NCBI GenBank assembly: GCA_037127955.1
Contig: JBAXXI010000001.1
Location: forward strand, 73,217-137,216
Origin: Candidatus Berkelbacteria bacterium
GTDB lineage: Bacteria; Patescibacteriota; UBA1384; UBA12157
DNA: 64,000 bases
Direction of reading: 5' to 3'
Made by a program: the position numbers and the translations under genes. Of the stretch, positions 16,522-56,797 are shown piece after piece; positions within the stretch are counted from its first letter, which is position 1, and each line of letters starts with the position of its first letter. A model generated the notes under the pieces. It made no database searches. It saw only the letters and a list, made by a program, of their open reading frames with translations, and was not told the DNA's origin.

Positions 16522-16607
16522 TGGTGCCCGGGAGAGGACTTGAACCTCCACGATCTTGCGACCACCAGCTCCTAAGGCTGGCGTGTATACCATTTCACCA
16601 CCCGGGC
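16522..16607 (-). tRNA. tRNA-Leu (UAG), long variable arm, CCA encoded
   Basis: Minus strand GCCCGGGTGGTGAAATGGTATACACGCCAGCCTTAGGAGCTGG... Confidence 0.85.
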
Positions 16608-16637
16608 AAATATAAAATTTATATTCTAATTATATTT

Positions 16638-16655
16638 CGGAATACTGAAATTCCG
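16638..16655 (-). promoter_or_regulatory. leader hairpin motif A (CGGAATTTCAGTATTCCG on the minus strand) between a GGTATAGT -10-like element (16673-16680) and tRNA-Leu(UAG)
   Basis: Identical 18-mer to 38356-38373 after reverse-complementing. Same position relative to a GGTATAnT box. Confidence 0.5.
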
Positions 16656-16697
16656 CGTTAATCTATAGATTAACTATACCTTATTTTCAACGATTAA

Positions 16698-17135
16698 TCA
16701 ATTCCCTATCGTGATTAAATCCTTAATTTTCTCAAAACTCACATCGCCGATGCCTTTGATATTTTTAATATCTTCAATCGTTTTAAAGCCGCTATTCTTT
16801 TCGCGATAGCTAATAATGTCGCCAGCGCGCACTGGACCAACGCCTGGCAGCTTATCGAGCTCAGCTAAACTCGCCGTATTAATATTGATTTTATCACCCT
16901 GATTTTGGGTCGATGACTGAACAACTTCCGAGCTTGCCTTGGCCGATAATTCTTGGCGGAGTTTTTCGTTTTCGGTTTTAAGGCCAGCCACCATTTTCTT
17001 GTCGCGCACTACTTCTTTTTGTATATAATCACCAAAAATCACTAGACCTGTGCCCGCTAAAATAATAAATACTAAAACCGCGCCAATATAATACCTGTAT
17101 TTAAAAATAAATTCATCAAAACTATTTTTCATCAT
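16698..17135 (-). CDS. comEA: competence protein ComEA (helix-hairpin-helix DNA-binding)
   Basis: N-terminal TM helix. C-terminal tandem HhH: ININTASLAELDKLPGVGPVRAGDIISYRE...IKGIGDVSFEKI. Confidence 0.8.
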   Translation of the reverse strand: MMKNSFDEFIFKYRYYIGAVLVFIILAGTGLVIFGDYIQKEVVRDKKMVAGLKTENEKLRQELSAKASSEVVQSSTQNQGDKININTASLAELDKLPGVGPVRAGDIISYREKNSGFKTIEDIKNIKGIGDVSFEKIKDLITIGN

Positions 17136-27806: not shown

Positions 27807-27882
27807 AGTGCACCTCCATAATTTTTATACAAAATTCCGCGACAAGCGGAAGCTTGGCTATATTTTGACGTAATTTAGGCAT
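27799..27882 (-). CDS. leader mini-ORF (27 aa, MPKLRQNIAKLPLVAEFCIKIMEVHFA) whose N-terminus mimics the downstream galT-like protein and whose stop overlaps its TTG start
   Basis: SD AGGAGGG then ATG. First 8 codons encode MPKLRQNI, as in the downstream gene, using different synonymous codons. Contains palindromic motif B (GCCAAGCTTCCGCTTGTCGCGGAATTT). Confidence 0.4.
   Translation of the reverse strand: MPKLRQNIAKLPLVAEFCIKIMEVHFA
27832..27864 (-). promoter_or_regulatory. palindromic motif B copy 1 (minus strand GCCAAGCTTCCGCTTGTCGCGGAATTT) in the galT leader
   Basis: Inverted repeat TTCCGC/GCGGAA with a 5-nt spacer. Near-identical copies at 46215-46244 and 46325-46354. Confidence 0.6.
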
Positions 27883-37936: not shown

Positions 37937-37946
37937 AATACAAAAA

Positions 37947-37975
37947 ATACCAGGCCAAAACCTGGTATTTTTTTA
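37947..37975 (+). terminator. rho-independent terminator after dnaJ
   Basis: ATACCAGGccaaaaCCTGGTAT followed by TTTTTTTATTTT. Confidence 0.7.
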
Positions 37976-38202: not shown

Positions 38203-38307
38203 GGCTCTCCTTTATTCTTTAATAAGAATAAAATTAAATATTAATTTACATTTAAAGTATACACCGAATAAACTCATGCTTCAATTATTGCGAGTCAATA
38301 TATTTTT

Positions 38308-38337
38308 TTGTATAATATATACAAATCGTGGTATACT
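38308..38337 (+). promoter_or_regulatory. promoter with extended -10 TGgTATACT. A second possible upstream promoter is TTGCGA-17-TATAAT at 38288-38316
   Basis: Seen directly. Confidence 0.45.
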
Positions 38338-38355
38338 AGATTTAATAAGTCTATA

Positions 38356-38373
38356 CGGAATTTCAGTATTCCG
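38356..38373 (+). promoter_or_regulatory. leader hairpin motif A CGGAATTTCAGTATTCCG, about 18 nt downstream of the -10
   Basis: Perfect 6-bp inverted repeat. Identical to the minus-strand copy at 16638-16655. Confidence 0.55.
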
Positions 38374-38419
38374 AAATACACTGGATTAGTAAACAAAAAC
38401 AAAAGTCGGAGGGGAAATT

Positions 38420-38935
38420 ATGCCAGCACCGTCATGGGACTTGGCAATATCGGTGATTTTTCTAGTCGGAATTGCTTTCGGCTGGATTTTACAAAAAGAT
38501 AAAATTATCGGAACTCTTTTAGGTGTTTACGTCGGTTTAATTATGACGCAGGCTTTTTCAGGAAATATTCAAAAATTCTTTCAAGGCGATACTACCCTAT
38601 TTAACCAAATCTGGATTCGAGCCGACGCCAGCCCGTTCACGGTCAATGTTATTATTTTTGCCTTATGTATCATGATTGTTTCAACCCGTGCCAATGTTTC
38701 AAGCAGTAAATCAAAAGGTCTTTTATCACCACTTGAAATTGTTGTTTATTCAGTTTTGACAACCGGATTGATTCTTGGCTCATTAGCCTACTTTATGCCA
38801 GCAGATGCCCGCACCCCATTTATAATGACTTCACGTATGGCAAAATTTATTATTGAAAATTACACATTTTGGCTCGCTGCCCCGGTCGTCTTTATGGTTG
38901 TATCTGGCTTTATCAATAAAGATAAAAACGACTAA
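38420..38935 (+). CDS. hypothetical membrane protein (about 5 TM helices)
   Basis: SD GGAGGGGAAATTATG. Hydrophobic profile. Confidence 0.5.
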   Translation: MPAPSWDLAISVIFLVGIAFGWILQKDKIIGTLLGVYVGLIMTQAFSGNIQKFFQGDTTLFNQIWIRADASPFTVNVIIFALCIMIVSTRANVSSSKSKGLLSPLEIVVYSVLTTGLILGSLAYFMPADARTPFIMTSRMAKFIIENYTFWLAAPVVFMVVSGFINKDKND

Positions 38936-40301: not shown

Positions 40302-40330
40302 TTGCCTCTTTGACATTTTATTGGTATAAT
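40302..40330 (+). promoter_or_regulatory. eno promoter with extended -10 TGgTATAAT (-35 uncertain, TTGCCT at 17-nt spacing)
   Basis: Seen directly. Confidence 0.45.
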
Positions 40331-40344
40331 AGAATAAATTCTAT

Positions 40345-40367
40345 GCGGAATTTCAGCATGCGGAAAT
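40345..40367 (+). promoter_or_regulatory. motif A variant GCGGAATTTCAGCATGCGGAAAT in the eno leader. A further CGCGGAATTTTTCAAAG copy sits at 40413-40434 next to the palindrome TTTTCAAAgTTTTGAAAA
   Basis: Shares the CGGAATTTCAG core with the copies at 16638 and 38356. Confidence 0.45.
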
Positions 40368-40394
40368 ATGGCCAACAATATTACATTATATTAA

Positions 40395-41756
<1,362 letters not shown>

Positions 41757-44323: not shown

Positions 44324-44352
44324 AAAAATACCGCATAACGCGGTATTTTTTT
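44324..44352. terminator. bidirectional rho-independent terminator
   Basis: AAAAATACCGCataaGCGGTATTTTTTT. Confidence 0.7.
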
Positions 44353-44353
44353 A

Positions 44354-44488
44354 TACTAATATTATTGTTTAAGAATCTCCATATTTCCAAATACTGAAAT
44401 TCCGCGAGATTTTAAAACTATTGTTTCAAGATCTCCATACTGCTTCGCGACTCGAGATATTAAAGCTATTGTTTTAATATCTCCATAA
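44354..44488 (-). repeat. three tandem diverged copies (about 45-57 nt) of the lepA 3' end (TATGGAGATATTAAAACAATAG and variants), with a degenerate motif A copy (44387-44408) between copies
   Basis: Minus strand: lepA ends ...TTTATGGAGATATTAAAACAATAG, then ...GTATGGAGATCTTGAAACAATAG... and ...ATATGGAGATTCTTAAACAATAA downstream. Confidence 0.7.
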
Positions 44489-46202
44489 AAACGGAATCAG
44501 GGATTTCAAGACGACCCAACTGCTTCATTTTCTTTTTACCAGCCGCCTGCTTTTTCAAAAGTTTATTTTTACGAGTAATATCTCCGCCATAAAGTTTGGC
44601 AATAACATCTTTTTTCATGGCTGAAATATCTTCACGCGCCAAAATTTTACCAGGCTTACCATCAGTGCTATTCATAGCAATTTGAATCATGACCTCAAAC
44701 ATTTGTTTTGGAATCAAATCTTTAAGTTTTAAGGCCAAGGCTTTAGCCTGCGTTTGTACCTGAAAAGCGGGGACAATCTTATTAAATTCATCAATTTGCT
44801 GACTAGCCACAAAAACATCAAGTTTAACTAAATCACCAACTTTCCAGCCAATCAATTCGTAATTTTGCGACGCATACCCTTGAGTAGCCGATTTTAGTTT
44901 ATCGTAAAAATCAATGATAATTTCGGCTAACGGAGCCTCATACTTAATCACCGCCCGATCGCCAAAAAAGTTAGTTGTCTCGTAAACACCTCTTTTCATT
45001 TGAGCGAGTTCCATCACCTGGCCCAAGTATTCTTTTGGCGTAATGATTTCCATTTTAACCCAAGGTTCTTCGTAACGAGGCCTGCCTTCATCATGATTAA
45101 TTCGATATTCAACCGAAGGTTGGGTGACAATTAAATCTAAATTATTCTCGCGCTCCAAACGCTCTTTTACGATCTCTAAATGCAACAATCCCAAGAATCC
45201 ACAACGAAAACCATGACCAAAACTCTGTGAATTTTCAGGTTCATAAATCAAACTTGAATCATTTAATTTTAATTTTTCAAGCGCCGAACGAAGGTGATTA
45301 GGTTCTCCTCCCTGAAGAAAAAATGACGCATAGACCATTGGTTGCGGTTTTTTGTAACCCTCGATAGGGGAGACACCAATAGGGGAATTAAGAGTGACTG
45401 TGTCACCAACTTGAACATCAGCCAAATTTTTAGCGCCCGTCACAATATAGCCGATCTCCCCTGCCTCCAACGAAACTTTCGGCGCATATTTAAGCTTAAA
45501 CTCGCCTACTTCAACGGCCTCGGCGTTTTTATTAGCGGCCATAAATTTAATGCCCACGCCCTTACCCACTTTGCCATCCATCACTCTAATATAAGCAATG
45601 ACCCCACGGTAAGCATCATAAATCGAGTCAAAAATCATAGCCCGAAGCGGAGCCTCTATATCGCCTTTCGGTGCGGGAACTTGTTCAATCACTTTATCTA
45701 AAATTTCCAAAACCCCCTGGCCAGTTTTAGCCGAAACTCTTAAAATATCTTCGTCAAAAACACCGAGTAAATCTTGAATTTCCTCGCTCACCTCTTCGAT
45801 CATAGCATTTGGTAAATCAATTTTATTAATCACTGGTACAATTTTTAGGCCAGCTTTTTGGGCGTGCTCTAAATTAGCCAAAGTTTGGGCTTGAATGCCT
45901 TTCGTCGCATCCACCACCAAAATTGCCCCTTCAACAGCGGCCAAAGATCTTGAAACTTCATAGGCAAAATCAACATGTCCTGGCGTATCGATCAAGTTCA
46001 AGCTGTAACCTTTATAATCCATACGCACTGGCTGAAGTTTGATCGTAATACCGCGCTCACGCTCCAAATCCATGGTGTCGAGCATCTGCGGCTTACTATC
46101 GCGCACTTCAACCGTATGAGTTAACTCCAGCATACGATCAGCTAAAGTTGATTTACCGTGATCAATATGGGCTATAATTACAAAGTTCCTTATTTTATCC
46201 AT
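44466..46202 (-). CDS. lepA: elongation factor 4 (LepA)
   Basis: MDKIRNFVIIAHIDHGKSTLADR (G1 motif) and a LepA C-terminal domain. Start at 46202, preceded by AAAGGAG. Confidence 0.9.
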   Translation of the reverse strand: MDKIRNFVIIAHIDHGKSTLADRMLELTHTVEVRDSKPQMLDTMDLERERGITIKLQPVRMDYKGYSLNLIDTPGHVDFAYEVSRSLAAVEGAILVVDATKGIQAQTLANLEHAQKAGLKIVPVINKIDLPNAMIEEVSEEIQDLLGVFDEDILRVSAKTGQGVLEILDKVIEQVPAPKGDIEAPLRAMIFDSIYDAYRGVIAYIRVMDGKVGKGVGIKFMAANKNAEAVEVGEFKLKYAPKVSLEAGEIGYIVTGAKNLADVQVGDTVTLNSPIGVSPIEGYKKPQPMVYASFFLQGGEPNHLRSALEKLKLNDSSLIYEPENSQSFGHGFRCGFLGLLHLEIVKERLERENNLDLIVTQPSVEYRINHDEGRPRYEEPWVKMEIITPKEYLGQVMELAQMKRGVYETTNFFGDRAVIKYEAPLAEIIIDFYDKLKSATQGYASQNYELIGWKVGDLVKLDVFVASQQIDEFNKIVPAFQVQTQAKALALKLKDLIPKQMFEVMIQIAMNSTDGKPGKILAREDISAMKKDVIAKLYGGDITRKNKLLKKQAAGKKKMKQLGRLEIPDSVFMEILKQ

Positions 46203-46281
46203 GTATCTCCTTTGTAATTTCCGCGACAAACGGAAGTTTGGCCATAATTACGAAATTACGAATATTTGTTTGATTATCCAT
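46195..46281 (-). CDS. leader mini-ORF U2 (28 aa, MDNQTNIRNFVIMAKLPFVAEITKEIHG) mimicking the lepA N-terminus. Its stop overlaps the lepA ATG (CATGGATAA)
   Basis: The N-terminus MD..IRNFVI(M/I)A parallels lepA MDKIRNFVIIA with synonymous codon differences (CGT/AGG, AAT/AAC, TTC/TTT). Contains motif B (GCCAAACTTCCGTTTGTCGCGGAAATT). Confidence 0.4.
   Translation of the reverse strand: MDNQTNIRNFVIMAKLPFVAEITKEIHG
46215..46244 (-). promoter_or_regulatory. palindromic motif B copy 2
   Basis: Minus strand GGCCAAACTTCCGTTTGTCGCGGAAATT. Confidence 0.6.
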
Positions 46282-46354
46282 GTTGTTCCCCTGTTTCTAT
46301 GAAAACAAATTGATGTAATTTCGTAATTTCCGCGCAAATCCGAAGATTTGCCAT
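46274..46354 (-). CDS. leader mini-ORF U3 (26 aa, MANLRICAEITKLHQFVFIETGEQHG) containing the motif B variant. Its stop overlaps the U2 ATG
   Basis: ATGGCAAATCTTCGGATTTGCGCGGAAATTAC parallels the internal ATGGCCAAACTTCCGTTTGTCGCGGAAATTAC of U2. Confidence 0.3.
   Translation of the reverse strand: MANLRICAEITKLHQFVFIETGEQHG
46325..46354 (-). promoter_or_regulatory. palindromic motif B copy 3 (variant)
   Basis: Minus strand GGCAAATCTTCGGATTTGCGCGGAAATT. Confidence 0.5.
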
Positions 46355-46380
46355 TATTACAAAATTCATTGAGTTATTCA

Positions 46381-47775
46381 TTAGCGATGTTTCTCCATTT
46401 CTTTCAAAGCATCTTCTCTTGTATTAATTTTTCCATCCAGATAAGCTTGCTCTAAATAACTTTTAATTTGACCAACTTCTGGCCCTGCTTCAATCTTAAG
46501 TATTTTCATAATATCTTCGCCAGTGACCAAATCGAATTTTTTTACTTGATTTTTTTCTTCTTCACTGGTCTCGGCCTCAAATTTGGCGCGCAGCGCCAAT
46601 GCGTCTTGGTACATTTTCATATCTGGCTCATGATTCGGTCGAAGACTAGCCGACAAATCCGCTTTGGTCAAATCTAGAAGCAACTCAATATTTGGATCTA
46701 CAAAAAGCTTTTTTTGTTTGCGCTCACTCATACCAGTAAAAGCATGAACAATCCGCATGTGTTGACGGATCGCCCAACAAACTCTACTGATAAAATGACG
46801 CGAAAATTTAAAACGTTCCAGGATTTCTTCAGCTTGTTTAGCTGACTGAATATCATGATCAAAAAAAGTAATACTAGTTTTATTTTTTTCGGCCCTAAAA
46901 CCAATCGTTTCTGGTTTGGCAATATCATGAAGTAAAACTGTCCATACTAACTCCTCTGAGAGAGTTTCACCAATATTAATTAAAGCCAAAAGCACATGCG
47001 TCCAGACATCACCTTCAGCGTGAAATTCTTTTGGTTGTGGTACATTTTTCATTTTTGCCAGTTCTGGCGAAATTTCATCTAGCAAACCCAACTCATCAAG
47101 CATCTCAATAGCCAAATGTCTATTTTTTAATAATAACATTTTGCTAAATTCTTCACGAATTCTTTCAATAGAAATTTGCCCAATATTACTCGCTAATCGT
47201 TTGATCGCGATTTTAGATTCTTTTTCAAACATAAAACCGAAACGAATCGCAAATCTAACCGCTCTAAGCATACGCAAATAATCTTCGTTAATGCGATCAT
47301 CGGCATTTCCGATAAATCGAATATATTTTCTTTTAATATCTGTCAGTCCGTCAATATAGTCAATAATCTCAGATTTAATTGGATTGTAAAACATACCATT
47401 GATTGTAAAATCACGGCGTTGAGCATCTTTTAAGCTCGATGAAAACTTTACAGACTCAGGATGACGATGGTCACCCACTCCAACATCTTCACGAAAAGTC
47501 GCTACTTCAAATTCATGATTATCGATCTTAACCGCCACCACTCCAAATGATTTGCCGCGATCCTCAGCCATAGGAAAAATCTTTTTGATTTCTTCTGGAT
47601 GAGCAGCAGTGGCAATATCAATATCATGGGTCTCAACTCCTAAAATCATATCTCGAACAGCACCACCAGCAATATATGTTTCAAACCCCGCTTCTTGCAA
47701 GGTTTTCACCACATCAAAAGCCGCCGATTCTTCATCGGTCAAAGGACGTTCAATTTTAAAATTTATCTTTTCCAC
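46381..47775 (-). CDS. cca: CCA-adding tRNA nucleotidyltransferase / poly(A) polymerase family protein with HD domain
   Basis: Pol-beta-like head GGAVRDMILGVETHDIDIAT and a C-terminal HD domain pattern (HD...H). Confidence 0.8.
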   Translation of the reverse strand: MEKINFKIERPLTDEESAAFDVVKTLQEAGFETYIAGGAVRDMILGVETHDIDIATAAHPEEIKKIFPMAEDRGKSFGVVAVKIDNHEFEVATFREDVGVGDHRHPESVKFSSSLKDAQRRDFTINGMFYNPIKSEIIDYIDGLTDIKRKYIRFIGNADDRINEDYLRMLRAVRFAIRFGFMFEKESKIAIKRLASNIGQISIERIREEFSKMLLLKNRHLAIEMLDELGLLDEISPELAKMKNVPQPKEFHAEGDVWTHVLLALINIGETLSEELVWTVLLHDIAKPETIGFRAEKNKTSITFFDHDIQSAKQAEEILERFKFSRHFISRVCWAIRQHMRIVHAFTGMSERKQKKLFVDPNIELLLDLTKADLSASLRPNHEPDMKMYQDALALRAKFEAETSEEEKNQVKKFDLVTGEDIMKILKIEAGPEVGQIKSYLEQAYLDGKINTREDALKEMEKHR

Positions 47776-51961: not shown

Positions 51962-53749
51962 CTATTTAAAGAATTTTTCAAATTCAACACTTTCGATAGT
52001 TTCTTTTTTAATCAAAACTTCAGTTATTTTTTTCAATAAAGATTTATTCTTAACCAAAACTTGCTCGGCTTTTTTTTGAGCATCTTTAATAATTCTCATG
52101 ACCTCTTCGTCAATCTGAAAAGCTTTAGCATCAGAAAAAGTTTTATGTCCACCAAGTTCACGACCCAAGAAAACTGCTTCTTCACGTTCGCCTAAAACAA
52201 CTGGACCGATTTTCTCTGACATCCCGTAAACCATAACCATATCACGCGCAATCTTGGTTGCTCGCTGCAAATCATTTGAAGCACCAGTAGTCACTTGACC
52301 AAAAATCAATTTTTCCGCAACCCAACCACCCAAAAGTTGGGCGATTTCGTCTTCAAATTTAGCTTGAGAATACAACCTTCTATCTTCCTCTGGCAAACTC
52401 CAAGTATAACCAAGAGCATTACCACGAGAAATCACCGAAATTTTATGAATCGGGTCGCAATCAACCAAAACTTTTCCGACAATAGCGTGACCAACTTCAT
52501 GATAACCAGAAATCTCTTTTTCGCTAACCGATAAGACTCTGGATTTTCGTTCAGGCCCAATAATAACTTTTTCGATTGCCGCACCAATTTGAGCTTGATG
52601 AATTTTTTTCAAATTTTCACGAGCTGCAAAAATAGCAGCTTCGTTCATCACGTTTTTCAAGTCAGCCCCAGAAAGTCCAGCAGTCTGACGAGCAATTTTT
52701 TCAAAATCAACCGAAGCGTCCATCGGCTTGTTGCGAGCATGAATTTTTAATATTTCAGTTCGTTCAGCGATATCAGGTAAATCAATGATCACTCTTCGGT
52801 CAAAACGCCCTGGTCTAAGTAAAGCTGGGTCCAAAACATCAGGTCTATTAGTGGCAGCCATCACGATCACACGAGTTTCATTTTCAAAACCATCCATTTC
52901 TACCAAAATTTGGTTTAAAGTTTGCTCACGTTCATCATGCGAACCACCCAAACCGGTACCACGTTGGCGACCAATTGCATCAAGTTCATCAATAAATAAA
53001 ATAGCTGGTGAATTTCGCTTGGCCTTGGCGAACAAATCGCGCACTCTGGCCGCACCCACGCCGACAAACATTTCCACAAATTCAGATGCAGAGATCGAAA
53101 AAAATGGTACTCCAGCTTCACCGGCCACGGCCCGCGCCAATAAAGTTTTACCGGTTCCCGGAGGACCAATCAGCAAAACGCCTTTTGGAATTTCCGCGCC
53201 TAAATTCTTAAACTTAGCCGGGCTTTTTAAAAATTCAACCACTTCATAAAGTTCCTGCTTAGATTCAGCCATCCCGGCTACGTCAGCAAAAGTGGTTTTC
53301 TTACCGCCAGGATTAAATAATTTAGCCTTAGATTGACCAAAACTCATGGCTTTATTATTGCCGCCCTGAGCCTGTCGAAGCATAAAGAATAAAAATCCAC
53401 CAATTAATAAAAATGGCAGTAAAATACTTAAAATCGTCGACCAATTCGAACTACTACTTGGGTTTTGCACCGTGATACTAACTTTATCCGGCGTAATCCC
53501 ATAATCATTTAACGAAGAACTAGACTCTTTGTAAGCCTGCAATTTTTGATTATCCTTAAGGGTTGCCGTCACCTGATTATCAGAAATAGAAATCTGGGCT
53601 ACATTGCCAGATTTGACTTGATCAACAATTTGAGAGATCGTAGTTGATTTTGGTTTACTGATTGGATTTGAAGAAAAAAGGCTCCAGCCGACGAGAGCAA
53701 TGATTATAAATACAATTATATAGAAAGCATTTTTTGATGTTTTATTCAT
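51962..53749 (-). CDS. ftsH: ATP-dependent zinc metalloprotease FtsH
   Basis: Walker [12 protein letters not shown] motif and HEVGHA zinc site. N-terminal TM pair. Confidence 0.95.
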
Positions 53750-53873: not shown

Positions 53874-53948
53874 TGGTGGCTGAGGCGGGATTCGGACCTG
53901 CGACCTCGGCCTTATGAAGACCTCGCTCTACCACTGAGCTACTCAGCC
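53874..53948 (-). tRNA. tRNA-Met (CAU, elongator-type; could alternatively be Ile2/lysidine type), CCA encoded. One A-C mismatch in the T-stem
   Basis: Minus strand GGCTGAGTAGCTCAGTGGTAGAGCGAGGTCTTCATAAGGCCGAGGTCGCAGGTCCGAATCCCGCCTCAGCCACCA. Confidence 0.7.
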
Positions 53949-53957
53949 AAATTATTA

Positions 53958-54022
53958 ATGCTGAAGACCTCGCTCTATGATATTTCATCAAAATGTCTGT
54001 AATACCACTGAGCTACAGAGCC
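53958..54022 (-). pseudogene. truncated tRNA-Met-like 5' fragment with a roughly 26-nt D-loop insertion, immediately 5' of the intact tRNA-Met
   Basis: Minus strand GGCTCTGTAGCTCAGTGGTA-[TTACAGACATTTTGATGAAATATCAT]-AGAGCGAGGTCTTCAGCA. It stops in the anticodon loop. Same architecture as the Phe fragment at 5567-5669. Confidence 0.6.
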
Positions 54023-54058
54023 TCGTACTCAAAAAATACCAGAGTAAATAATTTAATT

Positions 54059-54133
54059 TGGTAGCGGGGAGTGGACTTGCACCACTGATCTCCGGGTTAT
54101 GAGCCCGACGGGATACTACTTCCCTACCCCGCG
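54059..54133 (-). tRNA. initiator tRNA-fMet (CAU), CCA encoded
   Basis: Minus strand starts CGCGGGG and ends CCCCGCTACCA (unpaired 1:72). Anticodon arm TCGGGCTCATAACCCGA with three G-C pairs. Confidence 0.85.
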
Positions 54134-56722: not shown

Positions 56723-56797
56723 GGGCAAATAGCTCAGTGGTAGAGCAAGCGTCTTATACACGCTCGGTCGTAGGTTCGAATCCTACTTTGCCCACCA
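56723..56797 (+). tRNA. tRNA with anticodon UAU (Ile, AUA-reading type), CCA encoded
   Basis: GGGCAAATAGCTCAGTGGTAGAGCAAGCGTCTTATACACGCTCGGTCGTAGGTTCGAATCCTACTTTGCCCACCA. Perfect anticodon stem AGCGT/ACGCT with loop CTTATAC. Confidence 0.65.

What the first reader, a model, noticed from the sequence alone, without database searches (positions are those of the whole stretch)
38356..38373. Conserved leader hairpin CGGAATTTCAGTATTCCG immediately downstream of TGGTATAMT promoters
The identical 18-mer, a 6-bp inverted repeat CGGAAT/ATTCCG, occurs 12-20 nt downstream of an extended -10 box at two sites. One is upstream of the membrane-protein gene at 38420 (plus strand). The other is upstream of tRNA-Leu(UAG) at 16638-16655 (minus strand). 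A variant, GCGGAATTTCAGCATGCGGAAAT, together with a CGCGGAATTTTTCAAAG copy, follows the eno promoter at 40345-40434. A degenerate copy lies downstream of lepA at 44387-44408. The core CGCGGAAWTT is shared with the motif B palindrome found in the lepA and galT leaders. This looks like a family of transcript-5'-end hairpins, or alternatively operator sites for one DNA-binding protein with a TTCCG/CGGAA half-site.
Basis: seen in the sequence. Interest (0 to 1): 0.55.

Follow-up and report, generated by a model that had tools for sequence, protein, structure and literature searches.

The report
Dispersed two-hairpin intergenic repeat in Berkelbacteria
The 18-base "leader hairpin" is real, but it is only the commonest core of a 45-75 base repeat element (two stem-loops joined by a conserved GCGGAA linker). 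The element is scattered, always in the direction of transcription, through the gene spacers of one group of uncultured Berkelbacteria, much like the REP and MIRU repeats of better-known bacteria.

Summary
The exact 18-mer lies at 38356-38373(+) and 16638-16655(-), with variants at 40346(+) and 44404(-); chance predicts 0.03 matches.

The 18-mer is the core of a larger element: AUR, variable hairpin P1, GCGGA, second hairpin P2' (AUUU...AAAU base), AUR.
- P1 covaries strongly: 7 of 7 pairs change on both sides, 94% of cells are paired, and 0 of 500 shuffles reach the score.
The alternative P2' stem is intact in 54 of 56 distinct copies.

The window holds 8 copies, all intergenic and all in sense. 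A metagenome scan gave 43 further loci from lake and sediment Berkelbacteria-like contigs, some with tandem arrays. There were no related hits in GTDB representative genomes, viral contigs or Rfam.

Copies follow the upstream gene's strand (42 against 8) and often start at its stop codon. One orthologous copy is far better conserved than synonymous sites. Close relatives show empty and filled sites.

Best reading: a REP/MIRU-like dispersed RNA-level element of operon spacers. It probably marks or protects mRNA ends. That function is inferred, not shown.

The parts
38330..38385 (+). Layout: 5' flank GGTATAC; P1 TAGATTT-aat-AAGTCTA (38337-38353); linker ta-CGGA (38354-38359); P2' ATTTC-agtattcc-GAAAT (38360-38377); tail AC. 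It lies in the 5' UTR of the 171-aa membrane-protein gene (38420).
   Evidence: Covariance models R1 and R3 score it 38.3 bits. The MFE fold gives two hairpins. It is absent from the orthologous spacer of relative L106, which implies a 45-nt insertion next to ATAC.
16626..16680 (-). Copy B. Layout: GGTATA-G; P1 GTTAATC-tata-GATTAAC (16674-16657); G; CGGA; P2' ATTTC...GAAAT; tail AT. It lies between a ComEA-like HHH gene (16698-17135) and tRNA-Leu(UAG) (16522-16607).
   Evidence: R1 scores it 69.3 bits and R2 42.8 bits. Fold z-score is -2.5.
40323..40375 (+). Copy C1 in the eno leader. Layout: P1 ATAGAA-taaa-TTCTAT; GCGGA; P2' ATTTC-agcatgcg-GAAAT; tail ATGG.
   Evidence: R1 scores it 56.9 bits and R3 57.9 bits. 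A promoter-like site TTGCCT-17-TATAAT at 40302-40330 overlaps its 5' flank.
40366..40443 (+). Copy C2, in tandem with C1. Layout: P1 GCCAACA (40371-40377) ... TGTTGGC (40404-40410) with a 26-nt loop; GCGGA (40411-40415); P2' ATTTTTCAAA-gt-TTTGAAAAAT (40416-40437); tail AT. The true eno start is ATG 40467.
   Evidence: Found by the hairpin scan and by R2 and R3. The same P2' occurs at an unrelated locus, L065 12294-12344.
44375..44441 (-). Copy D, just after the lepA stop codon. The P1 5' arm is a copy of the last lepA codons (GGAGATCTTGAAAC) and the 3' arm is GTTTTAAAATCTC. Then G-CGGA; P2' ATTTC-agtatttg-GAAAT; tail ATGG. A bidirectional terminator follows.
   Evidence: R1 scores it 40.4 bits and R3 42.0 bits. 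Fold is -19.5 kcal/mol, z-score -3.75. It is absent after lepA in relatives L107-L110.
44380..44489 (-). Triplication of the last 21 nt of lepA (three copies encoding MEILKQ-stop). The copies are separated by an inverted copy of the gene end plus a degenerate core (first unit) or copy D (second unit).
   Evidence: Read directly from the sequence. Relatives carry a single copy.
27812..27864 (-). galT-leader copy, between ruvC and galT. Layout: AATATA-G; P1 CCAAGC-ttcc-GCTTGT; C-GCGGA; P2' ATTTT-gtata-AAAAT; tail TATGGAGG, which is the SD.
   Evidence: R2 scores it 40.0 bits and R3 25.6 bits. The ruvC-galT spacer of L062 has no copy.
46200..46250 (-). lepA-leader copy, proximal. Layout: ATTATG-G; P1 CCAAAC-ttcc-GTTTG; TC-GCGGAAATTAC. 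The SD AAGGAG and the lepA ATG (46202) follow directly. It has no second hairpin.
   Evidence: R2 scores it 35.7 bits.
46300..46357 (-). lepA-leader copy, distal. Layout: ATAATG-G; P1 CAAATC-ttcg-GATTTG; C-GCGGAAATTAC...
   Evidence: R2 scores it 34.3 bits. Orthologous copies are present in L107 (one) and L110 (two).

Best explanation
The 18-mer is the commonest core variant of a dispersed repeat element of about 45-75 nt. Its layout is 5'-AUR / hairpin P1 (variable sequence, closing G-C) / single-stranded GCGGA / hairpin P2' (base A-U, W-W, U-A, U-A, variable interior) / AUR-3'. It belongs to one clade of Candidatus Berkelbacteria (CPR).

Shown here:
- The family exists.
- Both stems covary.
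- Copies lie in gene spacers in the transcribed orientation, from the stop codon of one gene to the ribosome-binding site, tRNA or terminator that follows.
- The element is gained, lost and tandemly amplified between close relatives.
- At least one orthologous copy is under strong purifying selection.

Inferred:
- It spreads by insertion or templated duplication at ATA-rich sites. These include stop-codon contexts and -10 boxes, which would explain why it looked promoter-linked.
- It is kept because it works in the RNA as an operon punctuation element. P1 would cap the 3' end of the upstream message. The conserved GCGGAA linker would be the site for an endonuclease or RNA-binding protein. P2' would cap the 5' end of the downstream message next to its SD.

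I put the identity as a REP/MIRU-like transcribed repeat at about 0.85. I put the specific end-protection and processing mechanism at about 0.3.
For: Family and structure:
- 49 copies in 43 metagenome loci share the ATAG + variable hairpin + CG + core layout.
- P1 covaries: 7 of 7 pairs change on both sides, 94-95% of cells are paired, covariation 0.914 against 0.232 in shuffles (0 of 500 reach it), and slid controls fall to 0.13 or less.
- There are 33 distinct P1 stems and 12 distinct P2' stems. Pair 2 swaps U-A for A-U; pair 5 is C-G, U-A or A-U.
- P2' is paired in 100% of cells across 58 distinct rows.

RNA-level reading:
- The upstream gene is on the same strand in 42 copies and opposite in 8. 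The downstream gene is on the same strand in 36 and opposite in 14.
- An earlier count gave 35 against 5, binomial p about 7e-7.
- All 8 window copies follow the local gene strand, even though the strand blocks switch three times across the region holding the copies (about 16-47 kb).

Position:
- In 15 of 42 copies the upstream ORF ends at or inside P1. In 9 of them the stop is the conserved UAG.
- The SD follows within 0-5 nt in several copies.

Selection:
- In the nusG-rplK spacer of L068 and L095 the element is 50/52 identical, and the 2 changes are in the loop. Third codon positions and the rest of the spacer are heavily diverged.
- L065 and L071 differ by a compensatory A-U to G-C change in P1, where the 5' change is a synonymous Lys codon change.

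Turnover:
- An empty site in L106 matches filled site A.
- Copies D, C1 and C2 occur only in the window.
- L107 has a copy between ydjM and the holin-like gene where the window has none.
- The lepA-leader copies are shared by the window, L107 and L110 but not by L108 or L109.
- Tandem arrays occur.

No known family matches: Rfam gave nothing at gathering thresholds or at E<=10.
Against: - No transcript data are available, so the cleavage or protein-binding step is pure inference.
- The stems are almost all Watson-Crick (P1: 252 WC, 4 G-U, 2 A-C). There is therefore no G-U strand asymmetry to prove an RNA fold rather than a DNA fold. Templated correction of quasi-palindromes could mimic compensatory change.
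- The hairpins are only modestly stable (z-scores -0.1 to -3.75).
- High turnover and lineage-specific expansion are what a selfish element would show.
- In copies B and C1 a plausible promoter would start transcription inside P1, so P1 could not form in that transcript.
- Tandem arrays of up to 4 copies are not obviously useful for end protection.
- The metagenome set was collected with a pattern that fixes 20 of 23 core bases. Core conservation in that set is therefore partly built in.
Confidence: 0.55

Rival explanations
1. A purely selfish, non-autonomous mobile DNA element (MITE, REP or PATE-like). Its hairpins would be recognised as single-stranded DNA by a transposase or HUH enzyme. It would have no function for the host, and its sense bias would come from target choice (TATA-like stop-codon and -10 contexts) plus purging of harmful antisense insertions.
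For: - An empty and a filled site exist, with a short direct repeat ATAC.
- Copy number differs strongly among relatives: 8 per 64 kb in the window against 0-2 per 9-22 kb in L106-L110.
- Core sequences at unrelated loci are near-identical.
- Tandem arrays occur, and long duplications of flanking gene ends are seen in L081, the lepA trailer and the lepA leader.
- The stems are almost perfectly Watson-Crick.
Against: - The orthologous nusG-rplK copy is far better conserved than synonymous sites.
- The lepA-leader copies are retained across species with 81-88% LepA identity.
- Orientation tracks local transcription, not a single replication direction.
- P1 differs between copies, whereas a transposase-recognised hairpin should be constant.
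- No transposase gene is seen next to any copy in the Pfam notes of the fetched loci. An IS3-family gene is present in L108 but is not adjacent to any strong copy.
Confidence: 0.25
2. One reading: a hairpin at the 5' end of transcripts, placed 12-20 nt after an extended -10 box, acting as a 5' stabiliser or leader signal.
For: - Copies A, B and C1 do follow -10-like boxes.
- A few metagenome copies have TGnTATAAT directly before P1 (L066/L105, L090).
- If transcription starts inside P1, the second hairpin would sit near the 5' end.
Against: - Most copies abut an upstream ORF's stop codon or lie at the 3' end of convergent genes.
- The box before site A predates the element.
- For site A a better promoter lies further upstream, at 38288-38316.
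- The named stem is not conserved in divergent copies.
Confidence: 0.1
3. Operator sites on duplex DNA for one regulator with CGGAA/TTCCG half-sites.
For: The palindrome is perfect in the commonest subfamily. GCGGAA is the most conserved block in all copies.
Against: - The second half-site is missing or displaced in 17 of 21 non-canonical copies.
- The spacing between inverted arms ranges from 2 to 8 or more nt.
- A duplex-DNA site would not need two covarying stems.
- Orientation bias is strong.
- The flanking genes are functionally unrelated: r-proteins, aaRS, eno, galT, lepA and a tRNA.
Confidence: 0.04
4. A ligand-sensing riboswitch or a small self-cleaving ribozyme. The conserved junction nucleotides (AUR, GCGGA, AU-rich helix base, AUR) would form the active core, and the two stems would be free to covary.
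For: - The pattern of variable stems with about 13-15 conserved junction nucleotides is typical of small ribozymes.
- Tandem arrays and diverse gene contexts are also typical of ribozymes.
Against: - The gene context is too diverse for a riboswitch.
- No Rfam family matches.
- The lepA proximal copy lacks P2 altogether.
- No tertiary or pseudoknot covariation was found.
- The hammerhead core (CUGANGA...GAAA) is absent on inspection.
Confidence: 0.04
5. Coding sequence for short leader peptides. In one frame CGG AAT TTC AGT reads RNFS.
For: - The eno leader holds an ATG-initiated 29-codon ORF across C1 and C2.
- uORFs in the lepA leader run through the elements and end overlapping the next start.
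Against: - P1 length varies (15-40 nt, not in multiples of 3), so the frame across the core differs between copies.
- Most copies have no start codon.
- In L110 the frame over the linker is shifted relative to the window.
Confidence: 0.02

Closest known systems
MIRU (mycobacterial interspersed repetitive units)
   Same: - Size of 40-100 bp.
- Located in spacers inside operons and co-transcribed.
- One orientation relative to the flanking genes.
- Tandem arrays with variable copy number.
- Empty and filled sites with short direct repeats.
- ORFs through the unit that overlap the neighbouring start codon, so that insertion does not cut expression (PMC3184786; PMC12548453). The lepA-leader copies here behave in the same way.
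   Different: - No sequence relationship, and a different phylum.
- Here the defining feature is two covarying hairpins around a conserved linker.
- Coupling ORFs are seen only at lepA, not in general.
REP / BIME elements, including the SMAG (GTAG-REP) elements of Stenotrophomonas
   Same: - Small extragenic stem-loops.
- Present in many copies, singly or in clusters.
- Often just 3' of genes and co-transcribed.
- A conserved tetranucleotide (GTAG there, ATAG or ATGG here) directly 5' of the stem.
- Known to alter the stability of the upstream transcript (PMC3184786).
   Different: - REPs are single G+C-rich palindromes with a conserved sequence.
- REPs occur in both orientations, often as inverted pairs.
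- REPs are linked to RAYT transposases.
- Here the stems are A+U-rich and variable, there are two stems plus a linker, orientation is single, and no RAYT was seen.
Neisseria REP2 repeats
   Same: No terminal inverted repeats, two internal stem-loops predicted at the RNA level, and usually a position just upstream of ORFs (PMC3184786).
   Different: REP2 is 120-150 bp and carries its own promoter, RBS and ATG. The present element is 45-75 nt, usually has none of these, and is as often 3' of a gene as 5'.
Intercistronic processing and stability hairpins. From my own knowledge: B. subtilis cggR-gapA with RNase Y, and PPR-protein sites in chloroplast operons.
   Same: The proposed mode of action is the same: a stem at the new 3' end, a single-stranded recognition site, and a stem at the new 5' end next to the SD.
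   Different: Those are single-locus features, not a dispersed repeat family. Nothing about cleavage has been shown here.

Membership tests
REP/BIME (incl. SMAG) | A single imperfect palindrome of about 35 nt whose sequence is conserved within a genome | tested here: not met
   There are two hairpins. 33 distinct P1 stems and 12 distinct P2' stems were found.
REP/BIME (incl. SMAG) | A conserved GTAG tetranucleotide directly 5' of the stem | tested here: inconclusive
   An analogous but different tetranucleotide, (A/U)AUA-G or AUG-G, precedes P1 in most copies.
REP/BIME (incl. SMAG) | Both orientations, with clusters of alternating orientation | tested here: not met
   Arrays are head-to-tail. 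42 of 50 copies share the strand of the upstream gene.
REP/BIME (incl. SMAG) | A cognate RAYT (IS200/IS605-like) transposase in the genome | not testable with these tools
   Only flanks of up to 22 kb are held. No Y1 transposase appears in the Pfam notes. The whole MAGs could not be scanned.
MIRU-like intercistronic repeats | Intergenic position within operons, in the same orientation as the genes | tested here: met
MIRU-like intercistronic repeats | Tandem arrays with variable copy number | tested here: met
   L082/L087/L097, L086, L100/L104, L103 and L063 carry arrays. The lepA leader has 1 copy in L107 and 2 in the window and L110.
MIRU-like intercistronic repeats | An internal ORF overlapping the stop and start of the flanking genes (translational coupling) | tested here: inconclusive
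   True for the lepA-leader copies in the window, L107 and L110. No start codon or fixed frame is seen in most other copies.
MIRU-like intercistronic repeats | Empty and filled sites with short flanking direct repeats | tested here: met
   Site A against L106: a 45-nt insertion flanked by ATAC. This is a single clean case.
Neisseria REP2-type promoter cassette | The unit carries its own promoter, RBS and ATG | tested here: not met
   Only 3-5 copies have a good -10 at the 5' flank. The conserved unit contains no RBS or ATG.
Any Rfam 15 family | A covariance-model match | tested here: not met
   At gathering thresholds the window yields only tRNAs. At E<=10, six element-rich loci give nothing at the element positions.
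Palindromic transcription-factor operator | Two half-sites at fixed spacing, conserved in all sites | tested here: not met
Arm spacing is variable.
Intrinsic terminator | A G+C-rich stem directly followed by a U tract | tested here: not met
   P1 is followed by GCGGAA and P2' by AUAUAA. The terminator scan does not call the elements, and ordinary terminators exist nearby.
CRISPR array | Repeats separated by unique spacers of about 30 nt | tested here: not met
   The spacers within arrays are short hairpins of 12-24 nt and are identical within an array.

The most novel reading that the evidence does not exclude
The element is the cis-acting half of a clade-specific RNA punctuation system. Either a dedicated endonuclease or RNA-binding protein recognises GCGGAA presented between two stems, or the element cleaves itself as a new small ribozyme class. 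Either way it would cut polycistronic transcripts into end-protected monocistronic units. Because it is mobile, it could rewire operon expression quickly in a minimal CPR genome.
Probability: 0.12. Interest if true: 0.8.

Novelty: new variant of a known kind. Interest (0 to 1): 0.55.

Why it matters
CPR bacteria have tiny, densely packed genomes, and little is known about how they control gene expression. I found no description of a dispersed repeat family in them: Rfam gave no match, and literature searches gave nothing relevant.

This element fills whole gene spacers. It sits next to highly expressed genes (ribosomal proteins, aminoacyl-tRNA synthetases, enolase, a tRNA). It is both conserved at some orthologous sites and rapidly gained or lost at others.

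If it shapes mRNA ends or translation coupling, it would be a simple, portable regulatory module in organisms that lack most classical regulators. In any case it is a useful marker for strain typing and for spotting mis-called gene starts. One example is the false eno start at 40398.

Tried and rejected
1. The GTDB representative-genome scan with CGGAATTTCAGYATNNNGAAAT gave 55 single hits in unrelated phyla. All lie in one or two conserved coding contexts, so they are noise. The source species is not among the representatives.
2. The viral contig scan gave 0 hits.
3. Rfam, at gathering thresholds and at relaxed thresholds, gave nothing.
4. The G-U against A-C asymmetry test, meant to tell which strand folds, had too few non-Watson-Crick pairs to decide.
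5. A P0 helix between the 5' AUA and the 3' UAU cannot be tested, because UAUA is self-complementary and is also a direct repeat.
6. Hammerhead, pistol and preQ1-like readings were rejected on inspection because the core motifs are absent.
7. A CodY-box-like operator (AATTTTCWGAAAATT) was rejected because the central spacing varies.
8. A DNA uptake sequence was rejected because of the strict orientation and the attached covarying stems.
9. A promoter reading of the core itself was rejected because no -35/-10 geometry fits.
10. Several closest relatives (P0002, P0013, P0018) had no DNA on file.
11. A Pfam scan of 20 window proteins found no RNase or transposase that could be a partner.

Full report
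**Observation**

The exact 18-mer CGGAATTTCAGTATTCCG is at 38356-38373(+) and 16638-16655(-). A 3-mismatch copy is at 40346(+) and a 2-mismatch copy at 44387-44404(-). Dinucleotide shuffles predict 0.03 such matches, and none of 100 shuffles reached 4. The four sites share a longer block, CGGAATTTCAGYATnnnGAAATAY. The loose core CGCGGAAWTT alone is not enriched (20 found, 15.3 expected).

**Source organism**

The 171-aa protein downstream of site A is identical to an NCBI MAG protein of Candidatus Berkelbacteria. LepA gives the same answer. The window has 37% G+C.

**Searches elsewhere**

- A scan of one genome per GTDB species gave only 55 scattered single hits in unrelated phyla, all in coding contexts.
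- Viral contigs gave none.
- JGI metagenomes gave 43 loci with 49 copies, from lake and sediment samples, with 35-43% G+C and many different neighbours. At least one of these loci belongs to a named Berkelbacteria MAG.
- Rfam has no match, at gathering thresholds or at E<=10.

**Anatomy**

Lining up the copies shows that the 18-mer is only part of a unit.

- Directly 5' of the core lies a hairpin. Its sequence differs from copy to copy but its position is fixed. It is preceded by (A/U)AUA or AUG, closed by G-C, and followed by one G.
- On 17 and then 28 sequences, all 7 pairs of this P1 stem show changes on both sides. 94-95% of cells are paired. The covariation score is 0.45 to 0.91 against 0.15 to 0.23 in shuffles (0 of 500 reach it). 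The score collapses when the partner columns are slid.
- Covariance models then found divergent copies that the text pattern had missed.
A different stem that starts four bases later is always there: AUUUCGG-uaaa-CCGAAAU, AUUUCUCC-aaa-GGAGAAAU, AUUUAUUGA-aaaa-UCAAUAAAU, AAUUCC-ugac-GGAAUU, AUUUUUCAAA-gu-UUUGAAAAAU and others.
- In the common subfamily the two pairings exclude each other.
Among the 21 non-canonical copies the figures are 19 and 4.

The family consensus is AUR / P1 / GCGGA / P2' (AWUU...AAWU base) / AUR. The invariant letters are C-GGAA-UU.

**Copies in the window**

The window has eight copies:

| Copy | Position | Strand |
|---|---|---|
| A | 38330-38385 | + |
| B | 16626-16680 | - |
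| C1 and C2, tandem, eno leader | 40323-40443 | + |
| D, after lepA | 44375-44441 | - |
| galT leader | 27812-27864 | - |
| lepA leader, proximal | 46200-46250 | - |
| lepA leader, distal | 46300-46357 | - |

The only other model hit of note, at 53188-53229, lies inside ftsH coding sequence and is taken as chance.

**Position and orientation**

- All eight window copies are intergenic and point the same way as the local genes. The gene strand switches three times across the region holding the copies (about 16-47 kb).
- Over all loci the upstream gene is on the same strand in 42 copies and opposite in 8. The downstream gene is on the same strand in 36 and opposite in 14. An earlier count gave 35 against 5, binomial p about 7e-7.
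- In 15 of 42 cases the upstream ORF ends at or inside P1. In nine of these the conserved UAG is the stop codon itself.
- Eight or more copies sit at the 3' end of convergent gene pairs, ahead of an ordinary terminator.
- In many others the SD of the next gene follows the tail within a few bases.
- Neighbouring genes include rplK, rplC, rplL, rplI, L25, gyrA, alaS, gltX, eno, lepA, galT and a tRNA.

This is not a promoter-leader pattern. The promoter scan does find TTGCCT-17-TATAAT overlapping the 5' flank of C1 and TTGATT-17-TATAGT overlapping that of B. For A the better site lies further upstream, at 38288-38316. If the B and C1 boxes fire, transcription would begin inside P1.

**Turnover**

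- A relative with 72% identity in the membrane protein and the same dnaJ-TM2-gene order (L106) reads ...TGATATAC|TGG... at the point where the window has ...GTATAC[45 nt: P1, linker, core...ATACAC]TGG.... The element is therefore an insertion (or a clean deletion) next to ATAC, and the TGnTATACT box is older than the element.
- Four relatives have LepA 81-88% identical. None has copy D or the eno-leader copies.
- L107 has a canonical copy between ydjM and the holin-like gene, where the window has a 45-nt empty spacer.
- The lepA-leader copies are shared by the window (2), L107 (1) and L110 (2), but not by L108 or L109.
- More distant relatives (57-60% identity) lack the copies at the membrane-gene and galT sites.

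**Constraint**

- The nusG-rplK spacer of two species (L068, L095) keeps the element 50/52 identical, with both changes in the P1 loop. Meanwhile about a quarter of flanking coding positions (mostly third positions) and most of the remaining spacer differ.
- L065 and L071 differ by GCCAAA...UUUGGC against GCCAAG...CUUGGC. The 5' change is a synonymous Lys codon change in the upstream gene.

**Side effects on genes**

- The last 21 nt of lepA are present three times, all encoding MEILKQ-stop and differing only at synonymous positions. Inverted copies of the gene end form P1.
- The lepA leader is a tandem series of [copy of the lepA N-terminus up to ...AATTTTGTAATTAT | element | SD-ATG]. This gives a chain of uORFs that each stop overlapping the next start.
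- L081 carries a 30-nt duplication of a gene end around the element.
- These features, and the arrays, fit insertion or template switching with variable flanking duplication, followed by unequal exchange. The mechanism is inferred.

**What it is like**

The closest known kinds are:
- MIRUs: intercistronic, one orientation, arrays, short direct repeats at filled sites, coupling ORFs (PMC3184786; PMC12548453).
- REP/SMAG elements: a tetranucleotide plus a stem just 3' of genes, with effects on upstream mRNA stability (PMC3184786).
- Neisseria REP2: two RNA stem-loops upstream of ORFs (PMC3184786).

The element fails defining tests for REP, because it has variable stems, a single orientation and no RAYT seen. 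It fails for REP2, because it has no built-in promoter, RBS or ATG. It shares behaviour but not sequence with MIRUs. I therefore file it as a new variant of the dispersed-intergenic-repeat kind, not as a member of any named family.

**Mechanism**

- Shown: structure, orientation, position, turnover, and constraint at one site.
- Inferred: the two stems flanking a conserved single-stranded GCGGAA act in the transcript. P1 would protect the 3' end of the upstream message, the linker would be cut or bound, and P2' would protect the 5' end of the downstream message beside its SD.
- This accounts for the sense bias, the structure-only constraint on the stems, the sequence constraint on the linker, and the positions (after stop codons, before SDs, before a tRNA, before terminators).
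- Weak points: there are no transcript data, the stems are almost purely Watson-Crick, stabilities are modest, arrays are unexplained, and the copy turnover looks selfish.
- A purely selfish element is the main rival (0.25).

**Verdict**

The promoter link and the particular stem are incidental. The feature is ordinary in kind (a small dispersed repeat) but appears undescribed for CPR bacteria, and its structure is unusually well supported. Interest 0.55.

Noticed in passing
window 44380-44489 (-): The last 21 nt of lepA occur three times in tandem (ATGGAGATATTAAAACAATAG, ...ATCTTG...TAG, ...ATTCTT...TAA). All three encode MEILKQ-stop and every difference is synonymous. Relatives have one copy.
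   Followed up: partly
window 46200-46400 (-); L107 2475-2572; L110 3582-3707: The lepA leader is a chain of short ORFs. Each starts with a copy of the LepA N-terminus (..IRNFVI), runs through an element copy, and stops overlapping the next ATG. This is MIRU-like translational coupling.
   Followed up: partly
window 40343-40470: The mechanical ORF start for eno (40398) lies inside element copy C2. The true start is ATG 40467. A 29-codon ORF ([29 protein letters not shown]) spans C1 and C2.
   Followed up: partly
window 56723-56797 (+): ARAGORN calls a tRNA-Ile with anticodon UAU, which is unusual for bacteria. Two tRNA-Met(CAU) genes lie at 53874-54133.
   Followed up: no
L082 1486-1600, L087, L097; L100 199-430; L104 1153-1238; L086 1217-1350; L103; L063: Head-to-tail arrays of 2-4 units with periods of 32-50 nt. 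One lies between an S10-like gene end and rplC, and others upstream of gltX in two species. Within an array P1 and P2' differ by compensatory changes.
   Followed up: partly
L081 200-290; L098 6949-7060: The P1 5' arm is the coding end of the upstream gene (..TMGPSVKVQK-stop). In L081 the 30-nt gene end is repeated after the element. At the same site in L098 the second stem is a 10-bp variant (ATTTCGGTAT/ATACCGAAAT).
   Followed up: partly
window 27812-27864 (-), 46200-46250 (-): In the galT and proximal lepA copies the P1 loop UUCC(G) is complementary to the conserved linker (C)GGAA. The MFE fold of the galT copy prefers this alternative hairpin, which hides the linker. It may be a switch or may be chance.
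   Followed up: no
L004-L058 (GTDB hits): The motif pattern hits a conserved coding stretch (..CATGGTRCGGAATTTCAGTATnnTGAAATG..) in many unrelated phyla. It is unrelated to the element, and the protein was not identified.
   Followed up: no
window 37942-37973 and 44327-44350: Perfect bidirectional terminators (stem with A-run and T-run on either side) lie between convergent genes. This shows that the genome uses ordinary intrinsic terminators alongside the element.
   Followed up: no
L108 9132-10269: An IS3-family transposase pair (HTH_Tnp_1 + rve) sits next to eno in a close relative, at the place where the window has the two eno-leader element copies.
   Followed up: no
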